A DNA stretch of 64,000 bases from the human T2T-CHM13v2.0 reference genome, Homo sapiens, in assembly GCF_009914755.1 (NCBI RefSeq), contig NC_060926.1. The stretch is one strand, 5' to 3'. How positions within the stretch are numbered: the stretch's first letter is position 1; each line of letters opens with the position of its first letter. Under the pieces are notes generated by a model. The model searched no databases and had not been told where the DNA came from. It saw only the letters and a program-made list of their open reading frames with translations. Shown here piece after piece: positions 22,808 through 47,040 of this stretch. The position numbers and the translations under genes are program-made.

Positions 22808-23020
22808 CTGGTGGAGAGAAAGCGGCGCTCTGGCAGGTGAGGCAGCCCACCTGTCCAGGCAGGGCACTGAAGGTGTCCGCAGGGCAGAGCCGGCAGTCTT
22901 CAGCTGCCCTGGCCCTGCTGCTGCTTCTGAAGGTCCCTGCTGGGCAGGGCCTTGGGCTGCGAGTCCCTGCAGGGCAGTAGTGGCCCACCGGGCAGGAATG
23001 GCCCTGGTAGCTCTCTGACC
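22808..23020 (-). pseudogene. Cys-repeat exon, last visible; 213 nt, phase 1-1
   Basis: GSESYQGHSCPVGHYCPAGTRSPRPCPAGTFRS...DCRLCPADTFSALPGQVGCLTCQ; acceptor ttcctccAG; donor is CAG|GCGAGT (GC, not GT). Confidence 0.85.
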
Positions 23021-23552
23021 CTGGAGGAACACAGAGGGGAAATTCTGCCCCAGCCGAGGCAGGGACTGAGAGTGGACTGGGGGTGTCCAGGGTAGGGATA
23101 TGCCTGCTGAGGGAGGGGGGAAACAATGCAGTAAATGGGGGAAGAATCTAGATTGTGGGGGCAGTAGAGGGCTCTGTGCCCTGTAACCCCTCACCCTCCC
23201 CGCCAGCCCCTTGGTCTCCCTCTCAGTCAGGTGCGGGGCGCTGGGCAGTGGCTTTCCTTCTCTCCAGAGTGCCTGGGCCACTGGCTCCGACACATCTGTG
23301 TGCATGCTGCTCTGCCCTGTGTCTAGAGGACTTTTAAACCTGACACGGAGGCAGCTGACACTCACCTGCTCTGTGTCTCCATCCTCCACATGTTCTTGGG
23401 TCTGTGTCTTGGGCTGCTCCAGGCCTCTTGGGCTGTCCCCAGGCTCTGAGGGGCCCTCCCTGCCTGCGCCTCCACCCGCCTCACTGATCTCCACTCTGGG
23501 TCACCTCCAGTCCCGGTCCCCCTGCTCCTGCCCAGGCCTCCCAGGGACTCAC

Positions 23553-23756
23553 CCTGGGGGCAGCTGAATCCAGGCGGGCAGGGCTGTAAGGGTAGAGCAT
23601 CCAGGGCCCGGCTGCGGTAGGTGCCCGCTTCACAGAGGCGGCAGGCAGCATATCTCCTCAGAGACCCTGAGGCTGGTCCCATTCAGGGCTTCGGAGCCCC
23701 CAGGGCAGGCACGAGGTTGGGCACTGCCCGGGGGGCAGTAATGGGGAAAGACACAG
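23553..23756 (-). pseudogene. Cys-repeat exon, phase 2-1, with a 4-nt insertion frameshift near 23645
   Basis: CVFPHYCPPGSAQPRACPGG...EEICC, then in a shifted frame RLCEAGTYR...QPCPPGFSCPQG; tctctgcAG / GTGAGT; 204 nt where 200 keeps frame. Confidence 0.85.
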
Positions 23757-24065
23757 CTGCAGAGACAGAGCCCGGCTGGTTCATGCTGCCGGAACCTGTG
23801 TGTGCGGTGGGTTCTCTCGCTAGCGGGGGCCGACTTTCCCTGGCCTGGGGCCTCAGCTGCTAGCGGACGGGGACTCTGCTACTGTCCCAGTCAGGGGTCC
23901 TGGGGTTGCCTTGTGTCTGGTGGGGCCACGGCACCAAGCTGCCTTTCTGGTGGTGGATGAGCCATGCCCAGTTAACCAGGCCGGCACTGCCTGCCCATTC
24001 CACCCTGGGCAGAGGGGTGTTGTGGAGTGGATCTGATGTCAGGGTGTTAGTCCCAGACACGGGAT

Positions 24066-24257: not shown

Positions 24258-24520
24258 CCAGGATGAGCCTGCACTCTGATGGGGCATCCCAGGGCAATGT
24301 GCTTCCTCACCCCACCTTCCCTGGGGCAGAGGCAGGGGCTGGCCCTAGCTGGGAAGCCCAGGCAGAGGGTCACCAGGGCTTGCTTTTGGGCCCTGCCCTT
24401 TGGCTGGGTTTCTGAGGCACACATGCTTGTCATGGTGGGGCCTCACATAGGGTGCTGACAGCAGTTCCAGGGCTGGGGTTGGGGCTCAGACCCTTGGGGG
24501 GGTAGGGGGAAGGAACTCAC

Positions 24521-24648
24521 CGCTGCCCCAGGCCACTGTAGGTGGAGGAGCTGACAGGGCAGGCATAGCCCCCCGGGGCAGAGTGGGGGCAGCCCCGTCT
24601 GAGGCCCACAGTAGGAGCCGGGCCTACAAGGGACCTCAGCCACAGCAC
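24521..24648 (-). pseudogene. Cys-repeat exon, phase 1-2, with a 1-nt insertion in a G run (24569-24574)
   Basis: GAVAEVPCRPGSYCGPQTGLPPLCPG / GYACPVSSSTYSGLGQR; ctcttcAG / GTGAGT; 128 nt where 127 keeps frame. Confidence 0.85.
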
Positions 24649-25430
24649 CTGAAGAGACAGGGCCAGGGATGCGGGAGAACAGGCCACAATGTGGGCATGG
24701 TTTGGAGGACACCCCAAGTCCCTTCTTCACCCATCAATGGCACTTGGAAGCCAGGAGAGGTCCAGAGCCGGAGGAGAACTCAGGAGGGTCCCCAGGCTCC
24801 CCAGGTGAGGCCTGGGCAGGGAGGACAGCAGTAGGGTGAGGCCTCTGAGGTGGTGGGGAACAGTGTGGAAACCAGGAAGGAGTGCGGAGCTTGCAGGTGA
24901 AGGGAGATCTCGTGTGGTCAGGGAGGGTGACTCGTGCGGGTGGTGGTGTCATGAACCGAGATCAATGGCAGGAAGTTCCCGTGTCTTTGTGCAGCCAGCC
25001 GCCGCGGTGGGGAAGGAGGATGCATTTCATGAGGTGGAGGTGGGAGCTCTGATGAGGACGCACAGGGCAGTGGCACTGAGGCCACAGCTCACCTGAGGGC
25101 AGCCAACAGGAGGGTGCTTTTGGTTGTGCCTTGAGGTGTGGCAGGTACTGGACACTTTGTAGGGGGCATGCTATTTCTAGTTAAACCTCTGGCCGGCCTC
25201 CTCCTTGACCCAGATGGGGAGTAAGAGGTGACTTGAAGGCACCTTGGTCTGGGGACATCCAGGTGGTGTGGATGCCACCAGAGACTGGGTGTGCCTTGTG
25301 GGGGCTGGTCAGGTGTGGCTGTGCCACATCTGTGGCCTGAGCTCAATCAGGGCTTTCTGCAGAGCTCAGGCATGAGCCTCAGGGATGAGGGAAGGGATGG
25401 GAAGGGGCTGGGGTCATCCTGCAGCCTCAC

Positions 25431-25655
25431 CTGCTGGGCACTCAGATCCAGCTGGGCAGGGGATGGCAAACACATTTGCATGACCCTGAAGCTCAGGGTC
25501 TGGGCAGTGGTAGCCAGGAGGGCAGAGCTCACAGTCTTCCTGTGCTGATGCCCCTGGCTCTGACCTAAAGGTGCCAGGTGGGCAGAAAAAGGCACCCTGG
25601 TCACCTAGACACCAGTGGCCCGGAGGACATGGGTGGTCTTCAAAGGAAGAGAGAC
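25431..25655 (-). pseudogene. Cys-repeat exon, 225 nt, phase 1-1, open
   Basis: GLSSFEDHPCPPGHWCLG...CPPGTFRSEPGASAQEDCELCPPGYHCP...CPAGSECPAG; AG / GTGAGG. Confidence 0.9.
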
Positions 25656-25762
25656 CTGGGGGCAAAAGCATCAGGCTAAGAAGGGTTGCCTGAGGGGCTC
25701 CTGACAGCCTCTTCCCTCTCCTCCCCAAGGCCCCCACATCCAGCCTGCAGACAGGCTCTTAC

Positions 25763-25933
25763 CTGGCCATGGGCAGTGGTACCCAGCAGGGCAGGGGAGG
25801 CACTCCGCCTGACTATGGCCTCCATCTGTTGCCAGGTAGGTATGCTCAGGGCAGGCCTGGGGAGCTCCCGAGTGGGTCTCACTTCCTCCAGGGCAGTAGT
25901 GGCCAGAGGGGCAGGCCTGGGTGGCCGGGGTGC
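25763..25933 (-). pseudogene. Cys-repeat exon, 171 nt, phase 1-1, open
   Basis: GTPATQACPSGHYCPGG...ACPEHTY...AECLPCPAGYHCPWPG; ctctgcAG / GTAAGA. Confidence 0.9.
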
Positions 25934-26268
25934 CTGCAGAGCAAGGGCTGCCCTCACTTTTCTCCCCAGATGTGGGGCTGGAAGGTTCCAATCTCACAGG
26001 TCCTTGGCTGGGGTGATCCCTCAGCCAAGGTGATCCCTCAGCCATCCCCACCAAACAACTCAAGCCACAGCAAATGCCCAAAATGTACTTTAACCACAAC
26101 CACAACCCTCTGCAAGCCTTCTTGCCTCAGGCCTGACTCTAGCGGGGCACCTCTCCTCTGGCTTCCTCCCACCTGCTCAGGGGCACAGGTGCAAGCCGGA
26201 GGAATCAGATCTGTCTGCAGTCCTGGGACAGGAGGGCGAGTTGGGCTGAGAGCGGAGCCCAAGGATAC

Positions 26269-26391
26269 AGTCACGGCAGAAGGATCCCAGGGGGCAGGGA
26301 GCCCCTGTCACCCTGTCCTTTGGAGAAGGGGATGATGCACCTTCTGCACAGAAGTAGCCAGGCTGGCAGGGCCCGCTGGGGGTGGAGAGGC
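26269..26391 (-). pseudogene. Cys-repeat exon, 123 nt, phase 1-1
   Basis: GLSTPSGPCQPGYFCAEGASSPSPKDRVTGAPCPLGSFC; acceptor cctccAG; weak donor GTATCC. Confidence 0.8.
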
Positions 26392-26555
26392 CTGGAGGTG
26401 GAGGGGAACTGGGTTAAATGCTGAGTAGACTCACTATAAAAGACGTTGGCCTTTGGAGCCAACTGGGATCCCTGTGGGCATCAGTCCTCTGAGGACTCGG
26501 GGTGTGACTAGAGTACTCAGCTAGAACTGAGAGTTATACTAGTGGTCATGCCTTT

Positions 26556-27146
26556 GCTGGGCCTGCATTGAGCCTGTGTTGAGCCTCTGCTGAGTCTGTG
26601 CTGAGTCTTTGCTGAGCCCTGTGCTGAGCCTGTGCCGAGTCTGTGCTGAGTATATGCTGAGCCTGGCCTGAGTCCTTGTCCTGAGCTTGCATTGAGCGTG
26701 TGCTGATCCTGTGCTGGTTGTGTCCTGAGCCTGGGCTGAGCCTCTGCTGAGTCTGTGCTAAGCCCTGTGCTGGGCCTGTGCTGAGCGTAGGCTGAGTTGT
26801 GCTGAGCCCTGAGGCTGAGTTGTGCTGAGCCCTGAGGCTGAGGCTGTGCTGAGCCCTGAGGCTGAGTTGTGCTGAGCCCTGAGGCTGAGGCTGTGCTGAG
26901 CGTAGGCTGAGTTGTGCTGAGCGTAGGCTGAGTTGTGCTGAGCCCTGAGGCTGAGTTGTGCTGAGCCCTGAGGCTGAGTTGTGCTGAGCGTAGGCTGAGT
27001 TGTGCTGAGCCCTGAGGCTGAGGCTGAGCTGAGTCTGTGCTAAGCCCTGTGCTGAGACCTGAGACTGAGTTTGGGCTGAGTCTGTGCTGCACCTTTGTGG
27101 AGCCTGTACTGATCCTGGGCTGAGCCTGTGCTGAGCCTGAGCTAAG
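26556..27146. repeat. Intronic minisatellite built from GCTGAG modules (units of ~21-23 nt, e.g. GCTGAGTTGTGCTGAGCCCTGAG)
   Basis: Near-perfect core at ~26780-27030 with degenerate flanks. Confidence 0.92.
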
Positions 27147-27701
27147 TGTGCCATCTGCTCCTGCCCAACCCTGTGACATGGGTACTACTCTCATTCACAA
27201 AGAGCCTCAGGTCATCATCAGTAAGGTGCAGAGCTGACATTAGAGTACAAGTTTAGCCAACGCAGCCTAAGGTCTTGACCTCAGGGGCTGTAGAGCTGAG
27301 AGCCTCCCAAGGCAGAAGGAGCCTGGTGCATGCCTGGGTGCTCGGTGCCCAGCAGGGTTGTCCACAGCAGGTGCTTGGGAAGTGCAGGCAATCAGACATG
27401 GGGAGTACAGAGAGGGATCAGGGAGGTGCCACTGAGCCCCTCCCTGGGCATAGAGACCTGCTGGCCTGGCCACTCCTCCCTACCTTGCTGTTCTGTGGTG
27501 GCTGGCCTGCGTTCACCCAGAGTGACAGCAACAGTGACAGTTTATGAAGCACAGTCCTGCCAGGAAGCATGCCAGGCACAGCCCCCTGAGGTAGGCAGGC
27601 AGTGCTTCTCATTGGACAGGGAAAGATGGCGGTTACATGTTCACCCTCACATTGGTTCTCCCACCAGCCACAGCCTAGGCCACAGCACGATAGGTCCTTA
27701 C

Positions 27702-27881
27702 CAGAGGTGCCACAGAAAGAGCCTGGTGGGCAGGGCATGGGCTCTGGGCTGCCCTCTGGACAGTAGGAGCCAGCAGGGCACTTTTCCCCTGTGGCTGTGG
27801 CTGGGCACAGGCAATTGGTGCTGGTGTAGTTGTCCAGGTTGAAGGGGCGGGCGGTCCATGCCACAGACACACAGAACCATC
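27702..27881 (-). pseudogene. Cys-repeat exon, 180 nt, phase 1-1, open
   Basis: GWFCVSVAWTARPFNLDNYTSTNCLCPATATGEKCPAGSYCPEGSPEPMPCPPGSFCGTSG; ctaccccAG / GTAAGG. Confidence 0.9.
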
Positions 27882-28074
27882 CTGGGGTAGAAACCAGTGG
27901 GGAGGGGTGGGTGGTGGGCCAAGGAGTCCAAGGCCAGGCTTACCAGGCTGCAGGCCCACCCATCCCTCCCAGTAGCTGCTCCAGGAGATAGTCTGGATGA
28001 CCCCAGGTCCAGGGGCAGAAATGGGAAGTGCAGAGATGGACAGGGGGCTTCTTAGGGCAAGGCAGGAGACTCAC

Positions 28075-28224
28075 CTGCCGCACAAGGCCCAGAGGCCCGG
28101 GTCAGGTTCTCCTACCCGCAGCAGTGGCCTGGGGGACAGGGCAGGCAGCTGTCCAGGCTCTGGGTCAGTGGGTCTGGGTCGTAGTAGCTCCGAGGGCAGG
28201 GGAACTGGGTGGCGTACTTCGTGC
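28075..28224 (-). pseudogene. Cys-repeat exon, 150 nt, phase 1-1, in-frame TAG at 28112-28114
   Basis: GTKYATQFPCPRSYYDPDPLTQSLDSCLPCPPGHCCG*ENLTRASGPCAAG; cttctcAG / GTGAGT. Confidence 0.88.
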
Positions 28225-28871
28225 CTGAGAAGCAAAGTTCAGAGGAGGGGAGCCCAGCTTGCTGGTTCCTGAAGGCGCCCTCTGCTCCAGGGCCTGGGGC
28301 AGGGGAGGCTCAATGTGGCCAGCTGCTCCCTGTACCCCTCCTCCTGCAGGGCTGGTCCTTGGCAGACTCCCCACCCTCAACCCCACAACTCACTCACTCC
28401 TGGCCTTCCAGGCCGGAGAGTTCAGCCCCTGGGCTGGGTGGCCCTAGACCCAGGCTCCACAAAGCCACAGCATGTGCACTACTCCCCTTCCTGGTGCTCA
28501 ACTTCACTGAAAGGCACGGGACCCAAACTTTCTACATTTTGCTAAAGTAATTTCACATATTTGTTTTTTAGCCAACACGGATATGCTATGGAATACAATG
28601 TAAAACCTTCGGGCATTTTAAAACACAGCTGGAGACTTGGATGGAACTCATACTTGTCACCAGCTGCTTAGAGCTCATCCTTGGAGTGCCCTCATATCCC
28701 TGGCCTTCAGGACGGGTGGTGGGAAAGCCCGGAAGCAGAGGACACACCTATGCATGTGTCTGTTGCCACAGAGTTTGCATTGCTGTGAGCCCCCAAGTCC
28801 CCAGCTGAGCCTAGAGCAGCTGTACAACTCTGCCCAGCCTCGCCCCGGGAAGTTGTGGCCTAGGCGCTCAC

Positions 28872-29074
28872 CTCGGGGCAGTAGAAGCCAGCGGGACAGG
28901 GGTGCCTGCTGTAGTTGGTGATGTTCTCGGGGCAGTAGTAGCCAGTGGGGCAAGGGAAGCAGGAGGCCTGGCCAGTCAGGTAGCTGTAGGAGCCAGCAGG
29001 GCAGGGCTGTGGGAGGCTGGTTCCCCTGGGGCAGAAGTGGCCTCGGGGACAGGGGCCCCCCTGCCCTGAGTGGC
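28872..29074 (-). pseudogene. Cys-repeat exon, 203 nt, 1 nt short of frame at its 3' end
   Basis: GHSGQGGPCPRGHFCPRGTSLPQPCPAGSYS..GQASCFPCPTGYYCPENITNYSRHPCPAGFYCP; ends in phase 0 while the next exon starts in phase 1. Confidence 0.88.
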
Positions 29075-30320
29075 CTGAGGGGAGGAAGGAAGCTAAGTGA
29101 GGAGTGCACACCCCAGTCCCAGCAGAGAGTGCCAGAGCTGGGGGAGGCTTGTGCCCCGGCACCAGAACCAAATGTGGACTCCAGTTTAGGTCAGAGGTTT
29201 GTTTTTGAGAGGAGCCGTGCTTGTGACTGGCATTTGTACCACACCTTACAGATCAAAAAGCATGTGTTTTACACAAACGTCACATTATTCGGGCCTCAGA
29301 AAAATCCCTGTTTGGTAGGTGGACAAGAGCAATGATTGGTTTTTACTGAGGATGAAGTCCTAAGACGTTAGCGGGCGAGCCAGGATCTCCCTGGACTCTG
29401 CCTTGGCTCAGAGCTGGTTTTCCAGACATCCCTCCCAGTGCTCTTTCTAGGACACACCATGATTGTGCACTTTTCAGTAAAACAGGCTGACAGACCAGGG
29501 CTTTCCCACTGAGTTGTACTAAGCCAGGCCAGCTGCTTCTGTTTTGGTCTTTTGTCCAGGTTCAGCAGCCTGAACGGGGGCTTGGCTCTGGCTCTCCAGT
29601 CCTCATCCATGATGCCCCAGAACTCAACCTTCCATCTGAGAGCTGAACTCGCTCCTCCAATGTTCTCTGAATAATGGAAGTGTCAGAGCAGAGGGATTCA
29701 AGGATCCTGGCCAAGGATCAGCTGCCCTATCTGCCTTCACATGTTCCTGAGGACCCAGAGACTCCAGGCTGCCCCCTGACCACTGGAGATGGCTGCAAAG
29801 GGGGCGTCCTCTGGAAGATGGTCAGCAGCCTCTAGAGGAAGCAGACATCCTGGACGCTGACCTCCAGGGCCTAATGCTCTGCCCCCTCTCCTGACCTGCA
29901 CCTCGAGGGGGATGTGTAGAGGGTCTGCTCTGGGAGTCTTGGCTGTGGCCCCCACCTACCCAAGAAAGCCAATGCCCACGATCAGCTCAGCTTCTGGGTG
30001 GCCCATGGGGCACCATTCGGTGTCCACTGACTGCAACCCCCTCCCCCCAACACCCGTCCTCTCTGTCCACCTCCCGGCAAACCTGTGGTGGATTCAGCAG
30101 GTCTGAGTGAGACAGAGGTGGGCTGGGAGGCCGCAGGTGTGACCGTAAATGGGCAGGGCAGCCAGACCACAGCACGCCTCAGCCATCTGACTCCAGCCCC
30201 TCTTACATACGTCCCCTCCATCCTCAAACCACCCACAGCCCATCGGTGCCAAACCATGAGAGCCCCCACCTCAGGGCGTTGGGTGGTACAGGGCTCACCC
30301 GCTCCCAGGGGGCTCCACAC

Positions 30321-30460
30321 CTGTCGGGGTTGGGGAGGAGGCTCCTGCCAGACAGAAGTAGCCGGGGGAGCAGGGGCCAGAGGGCGCAGCCAGGCCAGAG
30401 GCACCACAGAAATGGCCAGGGGGACAGGACAGGCCCTCAGAGACCATGGAGAGAAACATT
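30321..30460 (-). pseudogene. Cys-repeat exon, 140 nt, phase 2-1
   Basis: MFLSMVSEGLSCPPGHFCGASGLAAPSGPCSPGYFCLAGASSPTPTG; tctccccAG / GTGTGG. Confidence 0.85.
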
Positions 30461-31230
30461 CTGGGGAGACAGAAAGAAACCCAGGAGATGAGCCAGGGAG
30501 GGGAGCAGGCGGGAGGAAGGGGCTGTGGGACCAGGCCTCTCTGAAAGGGTGGACCCAGGCGCACCCTGGCAGGGACCACCTTTCCGCGATTTCCTTTTCA
30601 TCTCTCCTCTCTCAGGCTCCCTGTGACTCCTGCCTACACTGGCTCCAGGTAGCATTTCCGGCAGGTGCCTGAGGGAAAGTGTGGCAGGGCTCTTCTCTCT
30701 GTCTCTCTTTCCCCTCTGAGATATGCACCTGGTTATAATTCTTCTCTGTCTTAATCCCAATTCAAGCTCAGGCCGTCCAGGGCCACAGACCTCTGTGATC
30801 TGGCAGCTACAATCAGAACATCTAACAGTGCCCCACACTACCCCCCGCCCTCCCCTGAGCCATCAGCTCCACGACTGGCCCTTGCTTTGGGCTGTCTTCT
30901 CTTGGGAGCTGGGAGGGTCCTAAAGATGAGGAGATGGGTCTGGTCTCAAAAGAGATATCGGCAGACACAAATTCTTAATGGCTTTGCTTTCTTGAGTATG
31001 ACGTGTTCTCAAGCCCCTCAAAGCCCGCATGGCCTGCCCTCGATCTGGCCCCTCCAACCGACACTCCCCAAGGCTTTCTGCCCTCGCAGCCCAGGTGGAA
31101 GTCCGGCTCTCCAAGCCTCACACTCTCCCATGGCTGGGGGATGTTGTTGGTCAGCTGTTAAGTGGAAAGGAGGACCGAGAGGAGGTCTGGGCTCAGCCCC
31201 TGGGACCAGGGCAGTGGCACTCATACTCAC

Positions 31231-31330
31231 TAACCTGAGAAGGTGCCCATAGGGCAGGGCAGGGCCACCCCTGTGCCCACTGGACAGAAGTGACCTAGAG
31301 GGCAGGGCCCTCCCGCAGTCACATGGATGC
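31231..31330 (-). pseudogene. Cys-repeat exon, 100 nt, phase 1-2
   Basis: GIHVTAGGPCPLGHFCPVGTGVALPCPMGTFSG; donor GTGAGT; the junction codon with the next exon would read TA|A. Confidence 0.8.
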
Positions 31331-33068
31331 CTTTATTGGGATGAGTGACCTCAGCTCTTGCCCAGAGAATCAGAAGTGGCTGAGATTGCAGAGCAGCCCT
31401 CCCTGGCCCCCAGTCAGGCTCTCGACCACCCCCAGCTCACACACCCCTGCAGTGGGACATTTCCCAGAATAAGGGAGCAGAGCTCGCGAGCTGGAGTGAC
31501 AGTGCCCTCCACTGCCAGGGTGGCTCTCAAGCCCAGGGACGGCAGTGGGCCCTGAGATGCGGCCCCTTCTGAATTAATTCTTGGCTATCTGTGCCAGACC
31601 CTGCTTAGGAGCCCAAAGCTGGGGAGAAAGCATGGGGGTTCCAGGACTTGCCCATCCTGTGGAAAGGTGGGTGTGGTGCCTTCAGCCCCACTCTTGGTGT
31701 GGAGGGCACTGCAAGGCACTGAAGAGTTGGGGCTCCAGACCCCACTCAGGGAGCCTCCAGATGAGTGTTCTAGAAACCTGCTTCCACTCCAGCTAAGCTT
31801 GTTTTCATTTACATATTCATTATGTCATCACTTATGGTTTGCTCAAACCCTTTCTGAATGAGATGGACCTAATTTAATAAAAATTACACTGACAAGTACT
31901 CTAAGGAGAAGGGGCCCTTATATTTCTATGGGAAGAGAAAAGAAACAGTAATGTGTGACTGTCCCTAAAGCCAACGGCTTTGTGTGAAGACATGTCTTAT
32001 ATGGGAGGGTGGGGACACCCGTGGAAGACGACGCCTCACCCTCCCCACACAGGTGGCCAAAGGTGCAAAAAGAAGGTGGAGGAGCTCAGGTGAAAGCACT
32101 GGTGGCCTCACAGCATGCATGAAAGTTATCTCCACAACCACCAGCCCTCAGGTGACTCGGTAGGGGGAGAAGTCACCTCACCTCATGAGCTGTCTCAGGG
32201 AGAGGGAGGGTGGGGCTGGGGTTCAGGCCAGGGGTGGTTTTATTAGCCTCTCCACCCTGAGGTGTCCCTGGACCCTGTCCTGGAGCCACTGCCTGTGAAG
32301 CCAAAGTGCCACTTGGCTTGCTGGGTGGATGTTAATCCCACAACATAGTCCTCAGAGCCCTGCCTGTGGGCTGGGGGCCACCAAGGTCATGCTGGGACTA
32401 TGCCAGGGTTGAAGGCTGGGCCTGCCACTCAAGGGCCTCGGGGAACACAGCTCCAGGCTGCCTCTTGTGGCTGCAAGGACATGTGGGAAGTCCTGCTCCT
32501 AAAGCTCCTCCAGCCCAGCACCCTCCAATTGACCTTTTTATGATCCTCCTTCTTTAGCTCAGCCCTTAACTTCTCCAGGAAAGCTGTCCTGATGCTGCTC
32601 TCATCTTTTGGGCAGCGTGGAAGCCTTGGCCAGGCACCAGCAGAGATGGGACATTTCCTGCATGTCAGAGACCCTGCAGAGACTGGATCCTACCTTTCTC
32701 TGTTATGCCCTCCGTCCCTGCCGCTCGCCTGCCCTGCGGGAGGGGCCATCGTGGCGGTGGGGTCCACGTCCAGCCCTGCCTCTCCTCAGGCTTATTCTGC
32801 TCTGCAGCCTCCTCCAGGACAGGTGTTTCTTTACTGCCCTTCCTGAGCTCAGTCTTATTTAATGCTCATCTCAGCTCTCATCTGAGGGGAGAACTCAGGA
32901 TTCCCGAGTTAAGGGATTTCCCACAGTCAGGAAGTGGGTTCTGACTCCGCCCAAAGGCCCTGCCCTCTACCTCGCATCACAGACCTCTGGGCCCTGGGAC
33001 AGCAAAAGAGGTTTTCCAGGAGCTGAGTCCCTTGGGCCCCACCGCACAGCCTTGCCCCCCCTCCTCAC

Positions 33069-36086: not shown

Positions 36087-36226
36087 CATGGGGCAGGGGA
36101 TGGATAGCAGGCCCTGGGCTGGGCAGTAGTGCCCAGGGCGACACGTCATGGCCCAGGGCCAAGCAGCTTTGTCTGGTTGCAGAGTTTTCCTCCTGAGCAC
36201 TCCTGGCACCAGAGATGACCTGGACC
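36087..36226 (-). pseudogene. Degenerate Cys-repeat exon, phase 1-0
   Basis: Ends TCRPGHYCPAQGLLSIPCPM|GTGAGC; the 5' half fits the motif poorly. Confidence 0.65.
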
Positions 36227-36845
36227 CTGGAAAGGGGTGTGGACAATAAGGTCGAGGTTCCATCCACACCTGGAATGCATAGGTGGGCCTGGTGCACGAC
36301 AGGTACTGAGGAAAGGTATGTGGGGCTGCTGCTGGCCAGGCCTGGCTCAGTGCGTACCTCCCCTATGAGGAAGGCGGATGCCACAGAACCAGGGAGCTCT
36401 CCAAGCACATGGCTGCAGGATTGGCAATGCCCGGAGGAGGAGGGCCCAGGCTGGAGGCTCCTTCTGTCTTCTCAGGGCTACTGATCCTCCGGGAGGCCTC
36501 TGCATGAGTCAGGAGAGGCCAATGTGGCCCTGCAGGGCTGCACTCATGAGTGGTCTGGGCAGGGCCGTCACGATGGCTGCACAGTGGGCCATACTGTGGG
36601 TTCTGGGTCACCCACCCTGCCACCTCCCCATGCCTGCCAGCGCTCTCGAGGTGTCCACATAGAGGCCTGGGCTCACTGGGAAGACTCAGGGCAGAAGGTT
36701 GGGGGCTGCCATGCCAGGTGAGTATTGGTGCTGGAGCCCTGCTGGGTTTGCCTCCCAGCTGTGCCATCTGCAGACCCCTCCTCATCTTGAAGGGGAAAGC
36801 TATGCTGGGGGTGTGGGTATCCCTGAGCTGACACAGTGAGTGCTG

Positions 36846-37024
36846 TGTAGATGGTAGAGCTCCAGGTAACTGCAAGGGGGGATGATGGTGCTTCCTGAGA
36901 AGGAGGGAAAGATTGTGTCTGAAACACAATTTGCTGTAGATGGTAGAGCTCCAGGTAACTGTAAGGGGCGATGACGGTGCTGCCTGAGAAGGAGGGGAAG
37001 ATTTTGTGTCCGAAACACAATTTG
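36846..37024. repeat. Two-copy tandem duplication, unit ~89 nt
   Basis: TGTAGATGGTAGAGCTCCAGGTAACTG...GAAACACAATTTG at 36846 and again at 36935. Confidence 0.92.
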
Positions 37025-37770
37025 GGCTCTTTGGGCTGCAGTGACTGGCCACAGTTGCCCTGTGTGGAAAGCTGCGAGATACTGAATAAACTGCACATTC
37101 TTTGACTGCACAACTCCCCAGGGCCACCTGTGGCTTCCCTAAGCTTGACATCATTTCTTGGAATAATCACCAAGCTTCACTGAAGAAGCCTGCAAAGATG
37201 GCATTAGCAGAGCAGTGAGGGACTCGTGCAATGGCACCCCCTTCCTGACACTTGAGTGCACATGGCAGGCAGTGGGGAGGAGGGTGCCGATAGCTCCTCT
37301 GGGTCTGGAAGGCCAATGTCATGCAATGTCCCAGGCTCCTGCTCATTGCTTACCTGGGTGGTGGGGGAAGAGGAGGTAAAATGGAAGTGTGCTGCCTTCA
37401 TCACCCATAGCTCCCTGTAGAGGGAACTAAATGCAGACACCTACCCCAGTGGGCTCAGGGCAATGACTCTGTTCCCCCATCTCCCTCCCTCTGCTTCTTC
37501 CCCTTCCCCTTCCCCAATAGGCGCCAGGCTGGCCCATGGAGCAAGGGCCCAGGCCTGCCCCCTCTGCCCTAGAAGAAGCACCTGGAGGCCTGCCCAGCTC
37601 CCAAGCCCACATTGGAGCAAAGGATTCTCCCTGCAGTTGCGTGTTTCCCTTGCCTGAGCGGAGCTCTGGGGAGTCACCATCGGGGCAGGCTGGGGCAGGC
37701 ACCTCCCAATTTTAGGATCCCCCACTCTTCAGAGCCCTCTGAGGATGGAGTCTGTTCTGGGAACACTTAC

Positions 37771-37894
37771 AGAGAAGCTGCCAGTGCTGCATGGTCGTGG
37801 CGTGGTGGTGCCTCTCTCAGGGCAGTGGTGACTGGCAGGGCGAGGCACACAGGCCACAGCCAGCTTGGCTGCTGGACCTTGGCAGTACGTTCCT
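37771..37894 (-). pseudogene. Cys-repeat exon, 124 nt, phase 2-0
   Basis: RGTYCQGPAAKLAVACVPRPASHHCPERGTTTPRPCSTGSFS; ccccctctAG / GTAAGT. Confidence 0.8.
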
Positions 37895-38154
37895 CTAGAG
37901 GGGGTGGAGAGAGCTAAAGGTGGATGCCCACGGCCTTCCTGGGGAAGAGTCCCCACCCATGAAGTCGCCATTTCTCCAAGGCCAGATCCCTCCACTGTCC
38001 CCCAGCTTCCCCTCAGAGTGTAAGGGCAGAACTCCCAGCCCGCCTGAGCCTTAGGAGGCCCTGTAGGGGAGGCTGAGGGTGTGGCCTCAGCTGGAGAAGG
38101 CAGGGCAGGAGATTTAAAAACCAGGCTAATTGTGCTTCTTTCTAAAGTTGTCTG

Positions 38155-39081: not shown

Positions 39082-39774
<693 letters not shown>

Positions 39775-39892
39775 TGAGGGCAGGCTGGGCCCTCCTCTCC
39801 CTTGGTACCAGTGTCCAGTGCTGGGCTCCAGCAGGCACACAATGAACGTGGCGATTTGGCCTCAATAACAACCACACATGCGGCCTCCTTAC

Positions 39893-40033
39893 CGTTGGCA
39901 GAGCTCCGGCTCAGGGACCCCACTGGGGCAGAAGGCCCCGGGGGGTAGGGCAGACAGTCCTCGAGCTGGCCGTTGCCTGCCTGGGAGCTGCAGGTGCCTG
40001 CTGGGCAGGGGAACTGTGTCCTCCACTTCGCCC
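39893..40033 (-). pseudogene. Cys-repeat exon, phase 1-2, with a 1-nt deletion near 39936
   Basis: GAKWRTQFPCPAGTCSSQAGNGQLEDCLPYPPG / AFCPSGVPEPELCQR; tgaaacAG / GTAAGG; 141 nt where 142 keeps frame. Confidence 0.85.
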
Positions 40034-40495
40034 CTGTTTCAGAGAGAAGAGGGGTTCAGAGGAAGAAAGAGGGGTCGGACCTGTGTCATCACTGGCACAC
40101 CAGCTCCTCACCTGCTGCCTGGAGACAGTTCCCAGGGGAGGCCACTGGGGATGGGGCAGGGGGAGGGGGTGTCACTCTCCAGGACACAGTCTTTAGGAAG
40201 CTGTGCTTTGGGCTGAGACACCTGGGAACCCCCATTTAGGAGGCTCTGAGGCTTATCAATCCCTTCCAGCCCCCAGCCTGCTGGTGGCTTCTGTCCCCAC
40301 AGCCTCCCCGAGTTTCCTGCTCCTCCCAGCCCTCCTCTCAGGAAGGTGGTCCTGAAATGGAAGCTTCCCCTCTCCCGTTGCACACCAGGCTTCTCCTGCT
40401 GCATCTGCTCCAGAGGAGGTGCACAGGCCAGCCCATGGCACCCTCTCCTGGCACTTGCCTGCAACCTTGCCAGGGCAGAGTCTGGCCCCACTCAC

Positions 40496-40720
40496 CTCAT
40501 GGGCAGTAATGCCCGGCCCTGCATGTCCCTGAGGGCACCTGAGCTCCACTGACACAGAACCAGCCCCTGGGGCAGGGCATACACTCCTCGCTCATGGTCA
40601 ATCCAGTCTGGTTACTCCAGATGCCGGGAGGACACTGGAACTGGGTTGGCTTTTTGGTGCCGGGAGGGCAATAATGGCCAGCTGAGCAGGGGATGGGGGG
40701 CCAGTCTGGGCCCCCGGTTC
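40496..40720 (-). pseudogene. Cys-repeat exon, 225 nt, phase 1-1, TGA at 40497-40499
   Basis: [74 protein letters not shown]; tttgcAG / GTGAGT. Confidence 0.9.
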
Positions 40721-41070
40721 CTGCAAACACAGTACTGAACTAGACCTGAAGGGCTGCTGCCCCTCTCCAGCCACAACCCCTGGCAGGCGTCAGAGACACG
40801 GGCTGGGGCCTTGCCTCGGGGCAGGGGGTATCTGGATTAACAACCTCCAAGGCCACCGTACCCGAGGCAGCAGGGTCGGGACTCAGGCTGCTTTTAATTG
40901 CCCAATCCTTTGGGCTCCCCATGGAGGGGTGGGCAATGCTCTTTGTGAGGAACAAAGGGGCTATGGGTCAGGGTCTATTGTCCTGGCCTCCCTGTCCCGG
41001 GGTGGAACTGGTTTTTCACCCAAAGGCAGGGTCCTGAGGTGGTGAGGCCACTGTCCCCCTCCTCACTTAC

Positions 41071-41207
41071 CCCCAGGACAGGCTAGTCCCTCGGGGCAGA
41101 CCTCACACTGCGATGGGTGGGAGAGGTCATTGCGGTTGCTAAAGGTCCCAGGAGGGCAGGCATGGGAGGGAGCGTGGGGACTGGAGGAGCCTGAAGGGCA
41201 CACGTAC
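41071..41207 (-). pseudogene. Cys-repeat exon, 137 nt, phase 2-1
   Basis: YVCPSGSSSPHAPSHACPPGTFSNRNDLSHPSQCEVCPEGLACPGG; gctgtAG / GTAAGT. Confidence 0.88.
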
Positions 41208-41620
41208 CTACAGCAGCAGGGGAGTTGGCACCTGGTGCCCACCACGCAGAGCCCGGCATCTTGGAGAGTCATGGCCAGATCCCGCCGTGCCCCTGGCCTG
41301 CTCTGTGAGTCTGCATGGTAACCTGGCCTCTCTGAGCTACTTTCTCCATGGACAAAGCCAGGAAGACAGCTCCCTAGACGCCTCCTGAGCATGGATGGAC
41401 CTGAGACAGTGCTGGGCCTCGGTGCTCGGGGGCAAGTCCTGGAGCCCTGGGCTGGCTGAGACAGAGCTTTGATCTGAAGGCGCAGCCCTCTCCGAACCCT
41501 GAGAGGGTCAGAGGCTGGGAGAAGTCTGGCCTTGACCTGGGACTGATTCTCTAAGGGTGTTAGGGGGATGGCTCTGGCCCCCATCGGGACACTCATCATT
41601 GAGAAATGGCGGGCACTTAC

Positions 41621-41806
41621 CCCGGTGAGCACGCTGCGTCGGGGTGTGTCAGCCCAGCCTGGGTACAGGCCCTGCCTGCTGGGCAAGGGGTGCAGTCTGT
41701 GGCTTCATCCTGGCCTAAGCGGGGGCCAAATGTACCCGGCTGGCATGGGATGGGGCGGGTGGCTCTGTTGGGGCAGAAGTGTCCCGCAGGGCACCGAAGA
41801 CACAGG
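41621..41806 (-). pseudogene. Cys-repeat exon, 186 nt, phase 2-2
   Basis: LCLRCPAGHFCPNRATRPIPCQPGTFGPRLGQDEATDCTPCPAGRACTQAGLTHPDAACSPG; ttctcAG / GTAAGT. Confidence 0.88.
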
Positions 41807-41969
41807 CTGAGAACTGGGGAGACAGCAGTTTTCTCTCTCAAGGGAAGCAGTGACAAGAAAAGCAACCAAAGCTCTACAGGCCTTGGCCACACCTGACCCT
41901 CCCATGGGCCTGGGAGTGCAGGAGCTGCCACCATCCCTGGTTACCAGGAAAGGGGTATCACTGCCTCTA

Positions 41970-42504: not shown

Positions 42505-42606
42505 CTGCTGAGCAGAAGCTGGTGTCCTGGTGGGGCACCTCTCTCCTGTCCTTGAAGTTTCCGGCATGGCGTGGCACAAAGGCAGCACCATATGGGTGGA
42601 AGTAGC
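42505..42606 (-). pseudogene. Candidate heavily decayed exon, 102 nt
   Basis: GYFHPYG...PRHAGNF...FCSAG with AG / GTCAGT ends; most cysteines are lost and the phase does not match the next exon. Confidence 0.4.
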
Positions 42607-44704: not shown

Positions 44705-46640
44705 GCCATAAGGAAAGTCTTGATAAATTTCAAGAGATTGAAATATTAGAGAGTATGTTTTCTGATCATAATAGAGTTCAGTTAGAAATCAAAGACACCC
44801 AGAAAAGCCCCAAACACTTAGAAATTAAACAACACACACCAAAACAATCCATTAGACAAAAAATCACAGGGAAATTAGAAGCATTTTAACTCAAAGGGTA
44901 ATAATAGAAACACACCATCATAAAGTGTGTGGGATATAACTAAAGCAGTGCATAGATTCAGATTTACAGGATTCAATGTCTAATCAGAAAACAAAGAAGA
45001 TGTAAAATCAGCTATCTACTTTCACCTTGGGAAGCTGAAAAGAGGAGAGCAAATGTAAATCAGGATTAATAAAACAGAAAAATCAATAAGGACAATCAAT
45101 AAAACCAAAAGCTAGTTCTTTGAAAAGGTAAATAACATTGATAAAGCCCTAACTAGACTAATAAAGAGAAAAAGAGAAAAAAATATACCAATATCAGGTA
45201 TGAAAAAGAGCTCTCACTGCAGATGACACACTGAAAGGGCAGTAAACATGTGGCCTGAACCACTCTCTGACAATCAACCTTATACCTAACAGAAAATGAA
45301 CAGATTCCTTGAAAGACACAAATTCCCAAACTGTTGCAAGAAGAAATAGAAAATCTGAATAGCCTTAAACGTGTCAAAGACATTTAATTCGTAAAGATCT
45401 TTCCACCAAGAAATCTCTAAGCCCTATGGCTTTACTAAGCTCTATACAATACTCAAGAGAGAACTCATACCAGACAGACATGAACTCCTCCAGAAAAAGA
45501 GAAGAGCAGGGACTACTTTGCAACTAATTTCCTGGGAAAATTAGTTGAGCCAGTGTTGCTTTGATACCAAAGAGACTAGAAAAAACTACAGAACAATGTC
45601 TCTCATACACATAAGATTAAAAGAAACTTACAAAAATGTTAGCAAATCAAATTCAATGATATGTAAAAATGATAACATCATAACCACATGAAGTCCAGGA
45701 ATGCAAGATTGGTTTAACATCCAAAAAACAATGATACTCACCATCTTATCAGAGCAAAGGAGAGAAAATCCATATGCTTACCCCTATAGGTTCAGGAAAA
45801 CACAGGACAAAATTAAATATCTATCCCTGATAAAACTCAGCAAGAAATAGAAGAGAATGTCCTCAACCTGATTAAAGGCACCCGTAAACTACAGCTAACA
45901 GCAACGTTGTGATTAGAGACTGAATGCTTTTTCCCTAAGATCAGGAAGAAGCCAAGGATGTTCATTTCTATTCAAAACAGTAGTGGAGTCCCTAGACAGT
46001 ATAATAAGGCAAGGAAAAGTAACAAAATGTGAATGGATTGAAAAAGTAGAAGTTGGTCAGGCGTGGTGGCTCACGCCTGTAATCCCAAGACTTTGGGAGG
46101 CTGAGGTGGGCAAATCACCTGAGGTCAGGAGTTCGGGACCAGCCTGACTACATGGAGAAGCCCCATCTCTACTAAAAATACAAAATTAGCCAAACATGGT
46201 GGCGCATGCCTGTAATCCCAGCTACTCAGGAAGCTGAGGCAGGAGAATCGCTTGAACTTGGGAAGCAGAGGTTGCGGTGCGGTGAGCTGGGATTGCACCA
46301 TTGCACTCTAGCCTGGGCGACAAGAGTGAAACTCCGTCTCAAAAAAAAAAAAAAAAAAAAAAAGGGAAAAGTAGAATTTAAATCATCTTTATTCACAGAT
46401 AACATGATTACCGGCAGAGAAGACCCTTAAAAATCTACACAAAAACTACCATAACAAATAAATGAAGTAAGCAAGGTTGAGGGATACAAGGTCAATACAC
46501 ACAAATCACTACCAGCAATGAACAACTGGAAATGGAAATAAAAAATACAGTTCCACTTACAACATCATCCAGAAACATGAACTACTTGGGGATAAATTTA
46601 ACAGGACCTGTACACTGAGAACTGCAACAGTCTGCCAAGA
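44705..46640 (+). mobile_element. Ancient L1M ORF2 fragment interrupted by an Alu
   Basis: A-rich diverged ORF2 sequence (GGAATGCAAGATTGGTTTAACAT; TCTTTATTCACAGATAACATGATT). Confidence 0.85.
46055..46363 (+). mobile_element. AluS with poly(A) and target-site duplication
   Basis: Full dimer flanked by AAAAGTAGAAGTT and AAAAGTAGAATTT. Confidence 0.95.
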
Positions 46641-46934
46641 TTACACCCTAGCCAGGAGCAGAACAGGACTCCAGCCATCCTCCAATGCCCCGTTCCCCAA
46701 CACTCTGCATACTTCTTTCTTCTGCATCATCTCATTTCATTTGTGCCACTTCCTGTGTTGATAGTTCTTTGTGTGTTTGGGCCCAGGGCTAGCTGGGCTC
46801 TACCCCTCAGAGGCCACCTGGGCTCCTGGGGTATGGACAGGCTAGTCCAAACACAGGAGACCCAAGGACCCTCCCAGCTCACTCCAGGGTCTGGTGCCTC
46901 CCGAATGTCATTGGGGAAGCCCAGTCACACCTAC

Positions 46935-47040
46935 CTGAGGGGCAGGGCTGGCAGCTGGGGCTTCTGCCTGTGAAGTAGTGCAGAGAGCACAAAATGCAGC
47001 TGGAGCACTGTGGGCCTGGCTCCTGTTCAGGTGGGCACTG
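46935..47040 (-). pseudogene. Candidate upstream Cys-repeat exon, 106 nt, phase 0-1
   Basis: QCPPEQEPGPQCSSCILCSLHYFTGRSPSCQPCPSG; gtccctcAG / GTAGGT. Confidence 0.65.

What the first reader, a model, noticed from the sequence alone, without database searches (positions are those of the whole stretch)
22808..47040. Hidden ~20-exon fossil gene for a giant cysteine-repeat (GCC2_GCC3/Ephrin_rec_like) protein
Seen: short ORFs on the minus strand assemble into about 20 exons (~3.4-3.5 kb) bounded by splice sites, each translating to CPxG[HYFW][YF]CPxG...PCPxGT[FY]...C..CPxG units. Split codons rejoin sensibly: GG|G-YVC, CG|A-GTYC, CG|C-CVFP. Known: this repeat type (Pfam Ephrin_rec_like, formerly GCC2_GCC3) occurs in a few copies in SCUBE and SVEP1 and in long arrays in protist surface proteins such as apicomplexan CRMPs. 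Inference: an array this long matches no characterised human protein I recognise. It resembles uncharacterised vertebrate models I recall (zebrafish si:ch211-286b4.4, mouse Gm9195; unverified), so this may be an ancient secreted or surface protein gene lost in this lineage.
Basis: partly seen in the sequence, partly recalled or inferred. Interest (0 to 1): 0.9.

Follow-up and report, generated by a model that had tools for sequence, protein, structure and literature searches.

The report
Dead giant cysteine-repeat receptor gene
This stretch of human chromosome 2 holds the broken remains of a very large cell-surface protein gene that other vertebrates still carry, so it marks an old gene that our lineage has lost.

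Summary
The minus strand from 22.8 to 50.4 kb carries about 26 exon remnants of one gene made of CPxGxYCPxG cysteine repeats. They are collinear, at 82-94% amino-acid identity, with a 2767-aa sooty mangabey model, and at 60-90% with ferret, cat, bat, tree-shrew and deer-mouse ('Predicted gene 9195') proteins.

Intact relatives have 2500-5000 aa: a signal peptide, a giant Ephrin_rec_like (PF07699) ectodomain, a conserved domain next to the membrane, one transmembrane helix and a coiled-coil tail.

The human copy is dead. It has one stop, four frameshifts, lost cysteines and an internal deletion of about 1450 codons, and it has no membrane anchor. Four anchor exons lie on chr22 and the last two exons on chr13, both decayed. 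The chr2 relic exists twice, as an inverted duplicate 99.4% identical. I found no intact paralogue in the genome.

RefSeq splits the relic into two 'protein' models and three lncRNAs. It is a new member of a known kind (unitary-type pseudogene) from an uncharacterised, ancient gene family.

The parts
50302..50379 (-). Exon 1 remnant: start codon and signal peptide (MSQPGLWVGLVPLLVAATAG)
   Evidence: Translation. Matches the N-termini of Rousettus P0061 (aa 1-26, 54%) and Tupaia P0002 (aa 8-50). Compare MPQPGLWMVLAPLLAA of Rhinolophus P0007.
48692..48823 (-). Exon 2 remnant (first cysteine-rich unit after the signal peptide)
   Evidence: tblastn: P0007 aa 15-58 at 59%, P0002 aa 42-84 at 53%. 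Overlaps lncRNA exon 48690-48880 (hub table).
47847..47954 (-). Possible exon remnant (weak)
   Evidence: P0061 aa 11-46, 47% identity, E 3.7e-5. Coincides with lncRNA exon 47839-47926 (hub table).
46888..47043 (-).
   Evidence: P0007 aa 88-141, 41% identity, E 1.5e-5.
42506..42590 (-). Exon remnant (…KDRREVPHQDTSFCSA)
   Evidence: Mangabey P0046 aa 1-92 maps to 42775-42506 at 82%. Only the 3' end resembles bat and ferret coding sequence.
41620..41838 (-). Repeat exon
   Evidence: P0046 aa 85-157 at 84%; P0007 at 80%; P0014 at 78%.
41066..41206 (-). Repeat exon
   Evidence: P0046 aa 158-210 at 83%; P0026 at 75%.
40500..40721 (-). Repeat exon, the best preserved
   Evidence: P0046 aa 203-276 at 93%. 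Used as the query.
39892..40046 (-). Repeat exon with a frameshift near 39,918-39,945 and a Cys>Tyr change
   Evidence: Two tblastn pieces in different frames (-3 then -2) against P0007, P0004 and P0012. CLPYPPG against CLPCPPG.
37771..37896 (-). Repeat exon with a Cys>Arg change (CVPRPASHHCP against CVPCPAGHHCP)
36084..36232 (-). Repeat exon with a frameshift near 36,155-36,173
   Evidence: P0046 pieces in frame -1 (36229-36155) and frame -3 (36173-36087). The same split appears with P0003 and P0005.
35399..35653 (-). Repeat exon
   Evidence: P0002 aa 319-387 at 72%; P0046 at 65%.
34165..34368 (-). Repeat exon with two lost cysteines (C>R, C>Y)
   Evidence: P0046 aa 508-575 at 94%.
33300..33422 (-). 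Repeat exon
   Evidence: P0046 aa 574-614 at 90%; P0002 at 75%.
33061..33216 (-). Repeat exon
   Evidence: P0002 aa 495-542 at 46%; P0045 aa 54-105 at 62%.
31236..31355 (-). Repeat exon
   Evidence: P0002 aa 541-580 at 82.5%; P0046 at 90% over 20 aa.
30316..30465 (-). Repeat exon
   Evidence: P0046 aa 635-683 at 88%; P0004 at 84%.
28872..29084 (-). Repeat exon
   Evidence: P0046 aa 749-815 at 94%. Weak PF07699 match, 17 bits.
28073..28249 (-). Repeat exon with an in-frame stop at 28,112-28,114 (HCCG*ENL where five of five orthologues read GQENL)
   Evidence: (P0046, P0004, P0006). ORF boundary 28112.
27700..27888 (-). Repeat exon
   Evidence: P0003 at 89% and P0002 at 88%; P0046 at 93%.
26550..27143 (.). 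Minisatellite inside an intron (units of 11/23/47/67 bases)
   Evidence: The alignment between the two chr2 copies breaks here.
26276..26374 (-). Last repeat exon before the deletion
   Evidence: P0046 aa 941-973 at 82%.
25944..26275 (-). Deletion junction. Only 332 bases separate exons that are 1452 codons apart in mangabey (aa 974-2425), 1378 in ferret and 1382 in Peromyscus
   Evidence: The missing part is absent from the whole genome (57 of 57 candidates scored, best 51% identity; no match to Lynx aa 360-1119).
25755..25943 (-). Repeat exon
   Evidence: P0046 aa 2426-2488 at 89%.
25420..25659 (-). Repeat exon
   Evidence: P0046 aa 2485-2564 at 89%.
24466..24652 (-). Repeat exon with a frameshift near 24,527-24,579
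   Evidence: P0046 pieces in frames -1 and -2.
23548..23755 (-). Repeat exon with a frameshift at about 23,644 and a Cys>Leu change
   Evidence: P0046 pieces 23755-23645 (frame -1) and 23643-23548 (frame -2).
22806..23027 (-). Last repeat exon present. Nothing of the membrane-proximal domain, transmembrane helix or tail follows
   Evidence: P0046 aa 2668-2740 at 89%. PF07699 21.9 bits. C-terminal 775-799 aa of P0014, P0066 and P0045 give no match in the window at E<=1 beyond two chance-level hits.
1..17911 (.). Duplicated flank shared with chr22 (91.7-94.7% identity). On chr22 it starts 4.4 kb beyond the gene's transmembrane exons

Best explanation
The region is the decayed human remnant of one ancient gene. 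In other vertebrates that gene encodes a giant single-pass membrane protein with five parts: a signal peptide, roughly 2000-3500 residues of Ephrin_rec_like (GCC2_GCC3) cysteine repeats, a conserved membrane-proximal domain of about 350 residues with no Pfam family, one transmembrane helix, and a cytoplasmic tail of 400-600 residues ending in a coiled-coil-like motif. One rodent orthologue is labelled 'Predicted gene 9195'. In human the gene cannot make that protein. The chr2 relic keeps about 26 exon remnants (about 1300 codons) but has one stop codon, four frameshifts, many lost cysteines and an internal deletion of about 1450 codons, and it ends before the membrane anchor. Four decayed exons that include the transmembrane helix survive on chr22, and the last two exons survive on chr13, both next to segmental-duplication junctions. 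Shown: collinear orthology, the lesions, the absence of the middle part from the genome, the scattered 3' pieces and the second copy. Inferred order of events: the 3' end was separated before the split of apes and Old World monkeys, because the mangabey model stops at the same exon. The large internal deletion came later, because mangabey keeps that part. Last came an inverted duplication that made two copies 99.4% identical; both carry the deletion. What remains active is only transcription and splicing of old exons into RNAs that RefSeq predicts as three lncRNAs and two short 'proteins'. This rests on the annotation table and was not tested here.
For: Collinearity: mangabey P0046 aligns in order along the minus strand from 42,775 to 22,809 in 23 orthologous pieces, 84.1% identity over 1248 positions. 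Tupaia, Lynx, Bos, Mustela, Rhinolophus, Galemys, ferret, Panthera, Peromyscus and Rousettus proteins give the same order. Family: 606 proteins of 2252-5000 aa at E<=1e-10. PF07699 scores 46-94 bits in 4 of 4 orthologues tested, against a cut-off of 23.1. Architecture comes from sequence analysis of 9 orthologues, and the chicken C-terminal module is found in 87 of 147 stored proteins, from sharks to mammals and echinoderms. Lesions: confirmed against other species; 16 of 124 mangabey cysteines are not Cys in human. Deletion. It is shared by both copies, since the flanking exons are about 2.0 kb apart in each. No anchor in the window. chr22 exons C22:17521076-17523086, 52-81% identity, one frameshift and one stop. 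chr13 exons C13:23820007-23822090, 55-70% identity, one stop and frame changes. Second copy: (99.42% over 25.7 kb and 14.9 kb). No other locus matched (53 of 53 candidates scored; 57 of 57; 17 of 1098 scored) or 35 (36 of 49 scored). Relaxed constraint: human-mangabey identity (84.1%) is about the same as ferret-Panthera (85.4%), although, by my recalled dates, that pair split about twice as long ago.
Against: Single human ORFs do not pass the Pfam threshold: 3 of 25 have E<0.01 and the best scores 21.9 bits against a cut-off of 23.1. I did not submit a spliced product. The mangabey model is itself patchy: non-homologous stretches at aa 1-100, 684-750, about 1180-1300, 1651-1800 and 2001-2200, with no signal peptide and no anchor. 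It is therefore a weak witness for an 'intact' primate gene and for exact deletion limits. Two of the whole-genome searches used a stricter first look and scored only part of the candidates, so absence is not proven for every segment. I tested the central part directly with 363 aa of mangabey and about 760 aa of Lynx only. The chr22 and chr13 pieces do not overlap the chr2 relic, so their origin from the same ancestral gene copy is inferred from orthologue order, not shown. I could not search any other vertebrate genome, so synteny, the ancestral locus and the dating are untested. Whether the transcripts have a function is unknown.
Confidence: 0.9

Rival explanations
1. The locus still encodes short functional cysteine-rich proteins, as the RefSeq models LOC124905945 ('SCUBE3') and LOC124900614 ('PEAR1-like') suggest.
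For: Both models use ancestral exons with AG/GT borders (22710-23020, 25431-25655, 25763-25933). Several exons remain open.
Against: The models are fragments of one larger collinear gene. They have no signal peptide. One of them includes an exon (24962-25092) with no orthologue match and no GT donor. The exons between and around them carry frameshifts and a stop. No CUB or EGF domain was found in 25 ORFs. Both are marked 'predicted' in the hub table.
Confidence: 0.04
2. The relic has been taken over as a functional non-coding locus (spliced lncRNAs or enhancers), and that is what keeps its exon structure visible.
For: Three predicted lncRNAs reuse at least eleven ancestral exons on the same strand, and RefSeq lists enhancers inside the region (hub table). 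Ancestral splice sites are retained.
Against: Amino-acid divergence from mangabey looks like neutral drift. No expression, conservation or perturbation data were available here. Transcription of a dead gene through old splice sites is common and needs no function.
Confidence: 0.12
3. The repeats are a chance product of G+C-rich, repetitive sequence, or a duplicated or processed pseudogene of a living human gene.
For: The region is 55-61% G+C, and a repeat motif can arise in many frames.
Against: The strand bias is 64 against 14. Identity to orthologues is 82-94% in exon order, with introns. No parent gene exists in the genome.
Confidence: 0.01

Closest known systems
Rodent 'Predicted gene 9195' (Gm9195) and its vertebrate orthologues, auto-named 'SCO-spondin', 'zonadhesin-like', 'MEGF6' or 'TNFR-Cys domain-containing protein'
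   Same: Same gene by collinear exon order and 60-94% identity. Same repeat type and same signal-peptide exon.
   Different: The human copy is broken, lacks about 1450 central codons and has lost its anchor and tail. Those names are automatic: 4 of 4 orthologues tested show only PF07699 and none of the domains of SCO-spondin or zonadhesin. I found no functional study. Gm9195 appears only in gene lists in 2 papers (I read one passage).
SCUBE1-3 and SVEP1 (Ephrin_rec_like / GCC2_GCC3 repeats)
   Same: Same Pfam repeat family, PF07699 (for orthologues; weak in human ORFs).
   Different: Those proteins have a few such repeats next to EGF, CUB, sushi or VWA domains (recalled). Here the repeats form the whole ectodomain, and no CUB or EGF was detected. 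Searches of the human genome with two pieces of this gene matched only the relic at E<=0.001.
Apicomplexan CRMPs and other protist surface proteins with long PF07699 arrays
   Same: Protist entries appear among the distant hits.
   Different: No orthology was shown, and the membrane topology and partners differ (recalled). This was not tested here.
Unitary pseudogenes of human (genes lost in our lineage but alive in other mammals)
   Same: Intron-containing relic, disabling lesions, no living paralogue, long open orthologues elsewhere.
   Different: The relic is not at one place. It is present twice on chr2, and its 3' parts lie on chr22 and chr13 among segmental duplications.

Membership tests
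Pfam PF07699 Ephrin_rec_like (GCC2_GCC3) | Score at or above the gathering cut-off of 23.1 bits | tested here: inconclusive
   Human single ORFs: 3 of 25 have E<0.01 (21.9, 17.5 and 17.0 bits), all below the cut-off. Domains are split across exons and I did not submit the spliced product. Orthologues: 4 of 4 pass with 46-94 bits.
Pfam PF07699 Ephrin_rec_like (GCC2_GCC3) | Regular cysteine pattern CPxG[aromatic]xCPxG…C..CPxG | tested here: met
   Read directly in the ORFs. CPxG occurs 64 times on the minus strand against 14 on the plus strand.
Gm9195-type giant membrane protein (unnamed family) | Same exon order as the orthologues | tested here: met
   23 collinear pieces with mangabey. Ten other mammal proteins give the same order.
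Gm9195-type giant membrane protein (unnamed family) | N-terminal signal peptide | tested here: met
   MSQPGLWVGLVPLLVAATAG at about 50,379, homologous to bat and tree-shrew N-termini.
Gm9195-type giant membrane protein (unnamed family) | Conserved membrane-proximal domain, one transmembrane helix and a tail ending …AQRIEDLEWEL… | tested here: not met
   Absent from the window. Only decayed fragments exist elsewhere: chr22 and chr13. The first 280 aa or so of the module were found nowhere in the genome (7 of 7 candidates scored).
Gm9195-type giant membrane protein (unnamed family) | Open reading frame through the whole ectodomain | tested here: not met
   One stop, four frameshifts and a deletion of about 1450 codons.
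Unitary pseudogene | No intact copy or parent in the same genome | tested here: met
   Only the two chr2 copies matched. Searches scored only part of the candidates.
Unitary pseudogene | Functional orthologue in other species | not testable with these tools
   Long open models with conserved architecture exist in many vertebrates, but no experiment was found and no genome of another animal could be searched.
SCUBE3 / PEAR1 (names of the RefSeq models) | CUB and EGF domains (SCUBE) or EGF/EMI arrays (PEAR1) | tested here: not met
   No such Pfam match in 25 ORFs at E<=0.01 or in 4 orthologues at E<=0.001. That these domains define those families is recalled.
SCO-spondin / zonadhesin (names of many orthologue models) | TSP1, LDLa, VWD, TIL or MAM domains | tested here: not met
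   Only PF07699 was found in P0014, P0066, P0046 and P0048. The list of defining domains is recalled.

The most novel reading that the evidence does not exclude
Humans, and probably all apes and Old World monkeys, have lost a giant single-pass receptor-like protein. The family dates back at least to the common ancestor of vertebrates and echinoderms, has never been studied, and carries a membrane-proximal domain and tail with no Pfam family. The gene was not simply mutated. It was torn apart by segmental duplication, which left its head (twice) at 2q13, its anchor on chr22 and its tail end on chr13. In that case mice and other model animals have a large cell-surface molecule with no human counterpart.
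Probability: 0.45. Interest if true: 0.65.

Novelty: new member of a known kind. Interest (0 to 1): 0.55.

Why it matters
It shows that five separate RefSeq entries at 2q13 are fragments of one dead gene. Two of them are 'protein-coding' and carry the misleading names SCUBE3 and PEAR1-like. Annotation and variant interpretation in the NPHP1 duplication region should take this into account.

It also identifies an ancient, conserved and completely uncharacterised giant membrane protein that rodents, carnivores, bats, birds, reptiles, amphibians and fish keep and humans lack. That is relevant wherever mouse Gm9195 turns up in expression screens, and to lists of human gene losses.

The way the remnants are scattered over three chromosomes, next to duplication junctions, is a clear example of gene death by segmental duplication rather than by point mutation alone.

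Tried and rejected
- **Pfam on single ORFs:** too weak to classify, because the domains are split by introns.
- **Structure of exon 40500-40739:** I predicted it with a 15-sequence alignment. Mean pLDDT was 37.4, which is unusable, so I ran no fold search.
- **PDB sequence search with Lynx P0003:** 0 matches at E<=0.001.
- **Pfam on the 791-aa C-terminal module of Panthera P0045 at E<=1:** 0 families.
- **ESM Atlas on the C-terminal part of P0045:** I did not pursue it.
- **Literature:**
  - 'GCC2_GCC3' with 'pseudogene': 0 papers.
  - The five LOC names: 0 papers.
  - 'Gm9195': 2 papers, gene lists only (one passage read).
  - 'ch211-286b4.4': 1 preprint, which lists it among testis-biased genes. 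I could not confirm that this zebrafish gene belongs to the family.
  - 'Ephrin_rec_like' with 'transmembrane' and 'vertebrates': 5 papers, none about this family judging by title and abstract.
  - 'unitary pseudogene' with '2q13': 1 unrelated paper.
  - Supplementary tables were not opened and might list Gm9195 coordinates or expression.
- **Ancestral locus from flanks:** chr22 and chr13 flanks share only interspersed repeats with each other, so the question stays open.
- **Rejected readings:** a chance motif, a processed pseudogene (introns are present), and a copy of a living human gene (none found).
Full report
**1. Observation**

Listing stop-to-stop ORFs with the standard code shows a long series of minus-strand ORFs between 22.7 and 47.1 kb. 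They carry CPxG[HYFW][YF]CPxG…PCPxGT[FY]…C..CPxG units. CPxG occurs 64 times in the three minus frames and 14 times in the three plus frames, and 55 of the 64 fall in the bins 20-44 kb. The block from 22 to 52 kb is also a G+C-rich island, at 0.52-0.62 apart from one Alu/L1-rich bin.

**2. Orthologues**

One exon (window 40500-40739, minus strand) served as query against the large protein collection, restricted to longer proteins. It found 13 proteins, all mammalian where a source names them: Tupaia 957 aa, Lynx 1286 aa, Bos mutus 1201 aa, Mustela, Rhinolophus, Galemys and a 171-aa Macaca fragment.

The Lynx protein as query, restricted to proteins of 2252-5000 aa, gave 606 proteins at E<=1e-10. 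They come from mammals, birds, reptiles, amphibians, teleosts, sturgeon, sharks, echinoderms, a hemichordate, cnidarians and some protists. Their automatic names are inconsistent ('SCO-spondin', 'zonadhesin-like', 'MEGF6', 'TNFR-Cys domain-containing').

Pfam finds only PF07699 (Ephrin_rec_like) in ferret, Peromyscus, mangabey and chicken proteins, at 46-94 bits against a cut-off of 23.1. Single human ORFs stay below threshold: 3 of 25 have E<0.01 and the best scores 21.9 bits.

**3. Collinearity**

tblastn of these proteins against the window gives one ordered chain on the minus strand. The mangabey protein (2767 aa) gives:

| Mangabey aa | Window coordinates | Identity |
|---|---|---|
| 1-92 | 42775-42506 | 82% |
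| 85-157 | 41838-41620 | 84% |
| 158-210 | 41206-41045 | 83% |
| 203-276 | 40721-40500 | 93% |
| 285-327 | 40046-39918 | 70% |
| 336-387 | 37896-37741 | 73% |
| 399-444 | 36229-36087 | 69-92% (two pieces) |
| 414-506 | 35653-35399 | 65% |
| 508-575 | 34368-34165 | 94% |
| 574-614 | 33422-33300 | 90% |
| 614-633 | 31295-31236 | 90% |
| 635-683 | 30462-30316 | 88% |
| 749-815 | 29072-28872 | 94% |
| 829-881 | 28243-28085 | 83% |
| 882-935 | 27861-27700 | 93% |
| 941-973 | 26374-26276 | 82% |
| 2426-2488 | 25943-25755 | 89% |
| 2485-2564 | 25659-25420 | 89% |
| 2560-2601 | 24652-24527 | 67% |
| 2604-2671 | 23755-23548 | 88-92% (two pieces) |
| 2668-2740 | 23027-22809 | 89% |

Tupaia, Lynx, Bos, ferret, Panthera, Peromyscus, Rousettus, Rhinolophus, Mustela and Galemys proteins follow the same order.

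- 46,888-47,043 and 48,692-48,823.
- A weak one at 47,847-47,954.
- A first exon at about 50,302-50,379. Its translation, MSQPGLWVGLVPLLVAATAG, is the homologue of the bat and tree-shrew signal peptides.

Of 15 RefSeq exon intervals on this strand, 10 have both AG and GT at their borders. The five RefSeq models in the hub table (two 'protein-coding', three lncRNA) tile these same exons, so they are pieces of one former transcription unit.

**4. Architecture of the living gene**

I examined nine orthologues.
- Chicken, Rousettus and Lontra start with a hydrophobic signal sequence.
- Cysteine density is a steady 9-13 per 100 residues for 2000-3700 residues.
- It then drops to 0-3 per 100 for the last 600-900 residues.
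- That last part contains one strongly hydrophobic helix, for example DWAVITGVLLAIGLATMLL.
- The protein ends in a conserved motif, …AQRIEDLEWELSLLLQ.

These include sharks, teleosts, amphibians, reptiles, birds, mammals and three echinoderms. The 791-aa module of Panthera has no Pfam family at E<=1, and the Lynx protein has no relative of solved structure by sequence.

I infer a type I membrane protein with a giant, rigid, disulphide-rich ectodomain. Its most likely role is as an adhesion or receptor-like surface molecule. No experiment on it was found.

**5. Why the human copy is dead**

- **Stop codon.** There is an in-frame stop at 28,112-28,114 (HCCG*ENL). Five of five orthologues read Q there.
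- **Frameshifts.** They lie inside exons near 39,918-39,945, 36,155-36,173, 24,527-24,579 and at about 23,644. Each shows up as two tblastn pieces in different frames, and the first two were confirmed with several species.
- **Lost cysteines.** 16 of 124 mangabey cysteines are not Cys in human. Examples are CVPRP, CLPRPPG, GGPYAPG and DALPLQP.
- **Internal deletion.** Between 26,276 and 25,943, only 332 bases, the human sequence jumps from mangabey aa 973 to aa 2426. The same jump is seen against ferret (1070 to 2449), Peromyscus (325 to 1709), Panthera (408 to 1521) and Rousettus.
  - A 363-aa piece of the missing part, searched against the whole T2T genome, gave only 37-51% matches to other repeats of the two chr2 copies (57 of 57 candidates scored).
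  - The Lynx protein gave no match for its aa 360-1119 (36 of 49 candidates scored under a stricter first look).
- **No anchor.** The C-terminal 775-799 residues of ferret, Peromyscus and Panthera have no match in the window.

Human-mangabey identity over 1248 aligned positions is 84.1%. That is about the same as ferret-Panthera (85.4%), a pair that by my recalled dates split about twice as long ago. This fits relaxed constraint.

**6. The missing 3' end is elsewhere**

The first 436 residues of the ferret C-terminal module match only chr22 (7 of 7 candidates scored). tblastn on 60 kb fetched there shows four consecutive exons at C22:17,521,076-17,523,086 (plus strand). They are 52-81% identical to Panthera, ferret, Peromyscus and Rousettus and include the transmembrane helix (GVLLAVGLATVLLMGLGLLL). 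One frame change and one stop are present.

The last 355 residues of the Panthera tail match only chr13 (33 of 33 candidates scored). There, C13:23,820,007-23,822,090 holds the last two exons (55-70% identity), with a stop and frame changes.

The first 230-280 residues of the module and the middle of the tail were found nowhere.

**7. Duplication context**

- **Second chr2 copy.** The relic lies in inverted orientation at C2:110.742-110.782 Mb, 99.42% identical over 25.7 kb and 14.9 kb. The only break is at the intronic minisatellite. Both copies have the deletion.
- **Flank shared with chr22.** Window 1-17,911 is 91.7-94.7% identical to C22:17,527,504-17,546,103, in the orientation that places it downstream of the gene in both places. 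Homology stops exactly at window 17,911, next to a masked repeat (17,895-20,418). On chr22 it starts 4.4 kb after the anchor exons.
- **Upstream junction on chr22.** The sequence upstream of the chr22 exons (17,520,001-17,520,618) is 96% identical to C2:36.9 Mb, which marks another duplication junction. The exon-bearing stretch itself is unique.
- **chr13 neighbourhood.** About 7.5 kb upstream of the chr13 exons lies a block that is 92-96% identical to sites on chr13, chr14, chr21, chr22 and Y.

My inference is that one duplicated block once held the gene through its anchor exons plus this flank. The chr2 copy then lost the anchor part and the chr22 copy lost everything upstream. The tail end on chr13 may mark the original locus. 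None of this could be tested without other genomes.

**8. Timing (inferred)**

The mangabey model stops at the same last repeat exon and lacks the whole C-terminal module. It has no signal peptide and contains several stretches with no homology to other mammals. One of these (aa 684-750) corresponds to human intronic sequence at 29,368-29,682.

In a search for proteins of 1521-4843 aa, the mangabey entry was the only primate among the 120 listed. The next hit was ferret at 59%. A Macaca entry is only a 171-aa fragment.

The gene was therefore probably already disabled in the common ancestor of apes and Old World monkeys. The big deletion is younger, and the 99.4% duplication younger still.

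**9. Verdict**

This is a unitary-type pseudogene, duplicated and scattered, of an ancient and uncharacterised giant membrane protein family. I found it described in no paper; supplementary files were not opened. It is a new member of a known kind. The main interest lies in the living family and in how the gene was dismantled.

Noticed in passing
window 1-17911: This stretch, which includes the annotated ZNF532 processed pseudogene, is 91.7-94.7% identical to chr22 17,527,504-17,546,103 in inverted orientation. It is an interchromosomal segmental duplication, and its edge at 17,911 abuts a masked repeat.
   Followed up: partly
window 26550-27143: G+C-rich minisatellite (units of 11, 23, 47 and 67 bases; 68-83% matches) inside an intron of the relic. 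It reads as a long open frame of SAQPQPQGSAQLSLR-like repeats on the minus strand. It is the only place where the alignment of the two chr2 copies breaks, so its length differs between them.
   Followed up: partly
window 36846-37024: Two tandem copies of an 89-base unit (91% matches) in an intron. They lie within unusually long minus-strand ORFs (36363..37166) that have no match to the orthologues.
   Followed up: no
L011:1-618 (chr22 17,520,001-17,520,618): 96% identical to chr2 36,905,943-36,906,560. This looks like another duplication module, ending about 460 bases upstream of the first anchor exon on chr22.
   Followed up: no
L023:1-2563 (chr13 23,810,001-23,812,563): 90-96% identical to sites at chr13 13.45, 18.61 and 24.15 Mb, chr22 17.32 Mb, chr21 10.51 Mb, chr14 5.99 Mb and chrY 27.40 Mb, against 71-84% for ordinary interspersed copies. 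This is a duplication family of acrocentric short arms and pericentromeres lying next to the relic's tail exons.
   Followed up: no
window 24962-25092: The first coding exon of RefSeq model LOC124900614 has no match to any orthologue and lacks a GT donor at its annotated end. It looks like an artefact of modelling a dead gene.
   Followed up: partly
P0046 (Cercocebus atys model), aa 684-750: This part of the monkey 'protein' corresponds to the human ORF at window 29368..29682, which is intronic in other mammals. The monkey model appears to read through non-coding sequence.
   Followed up: partly
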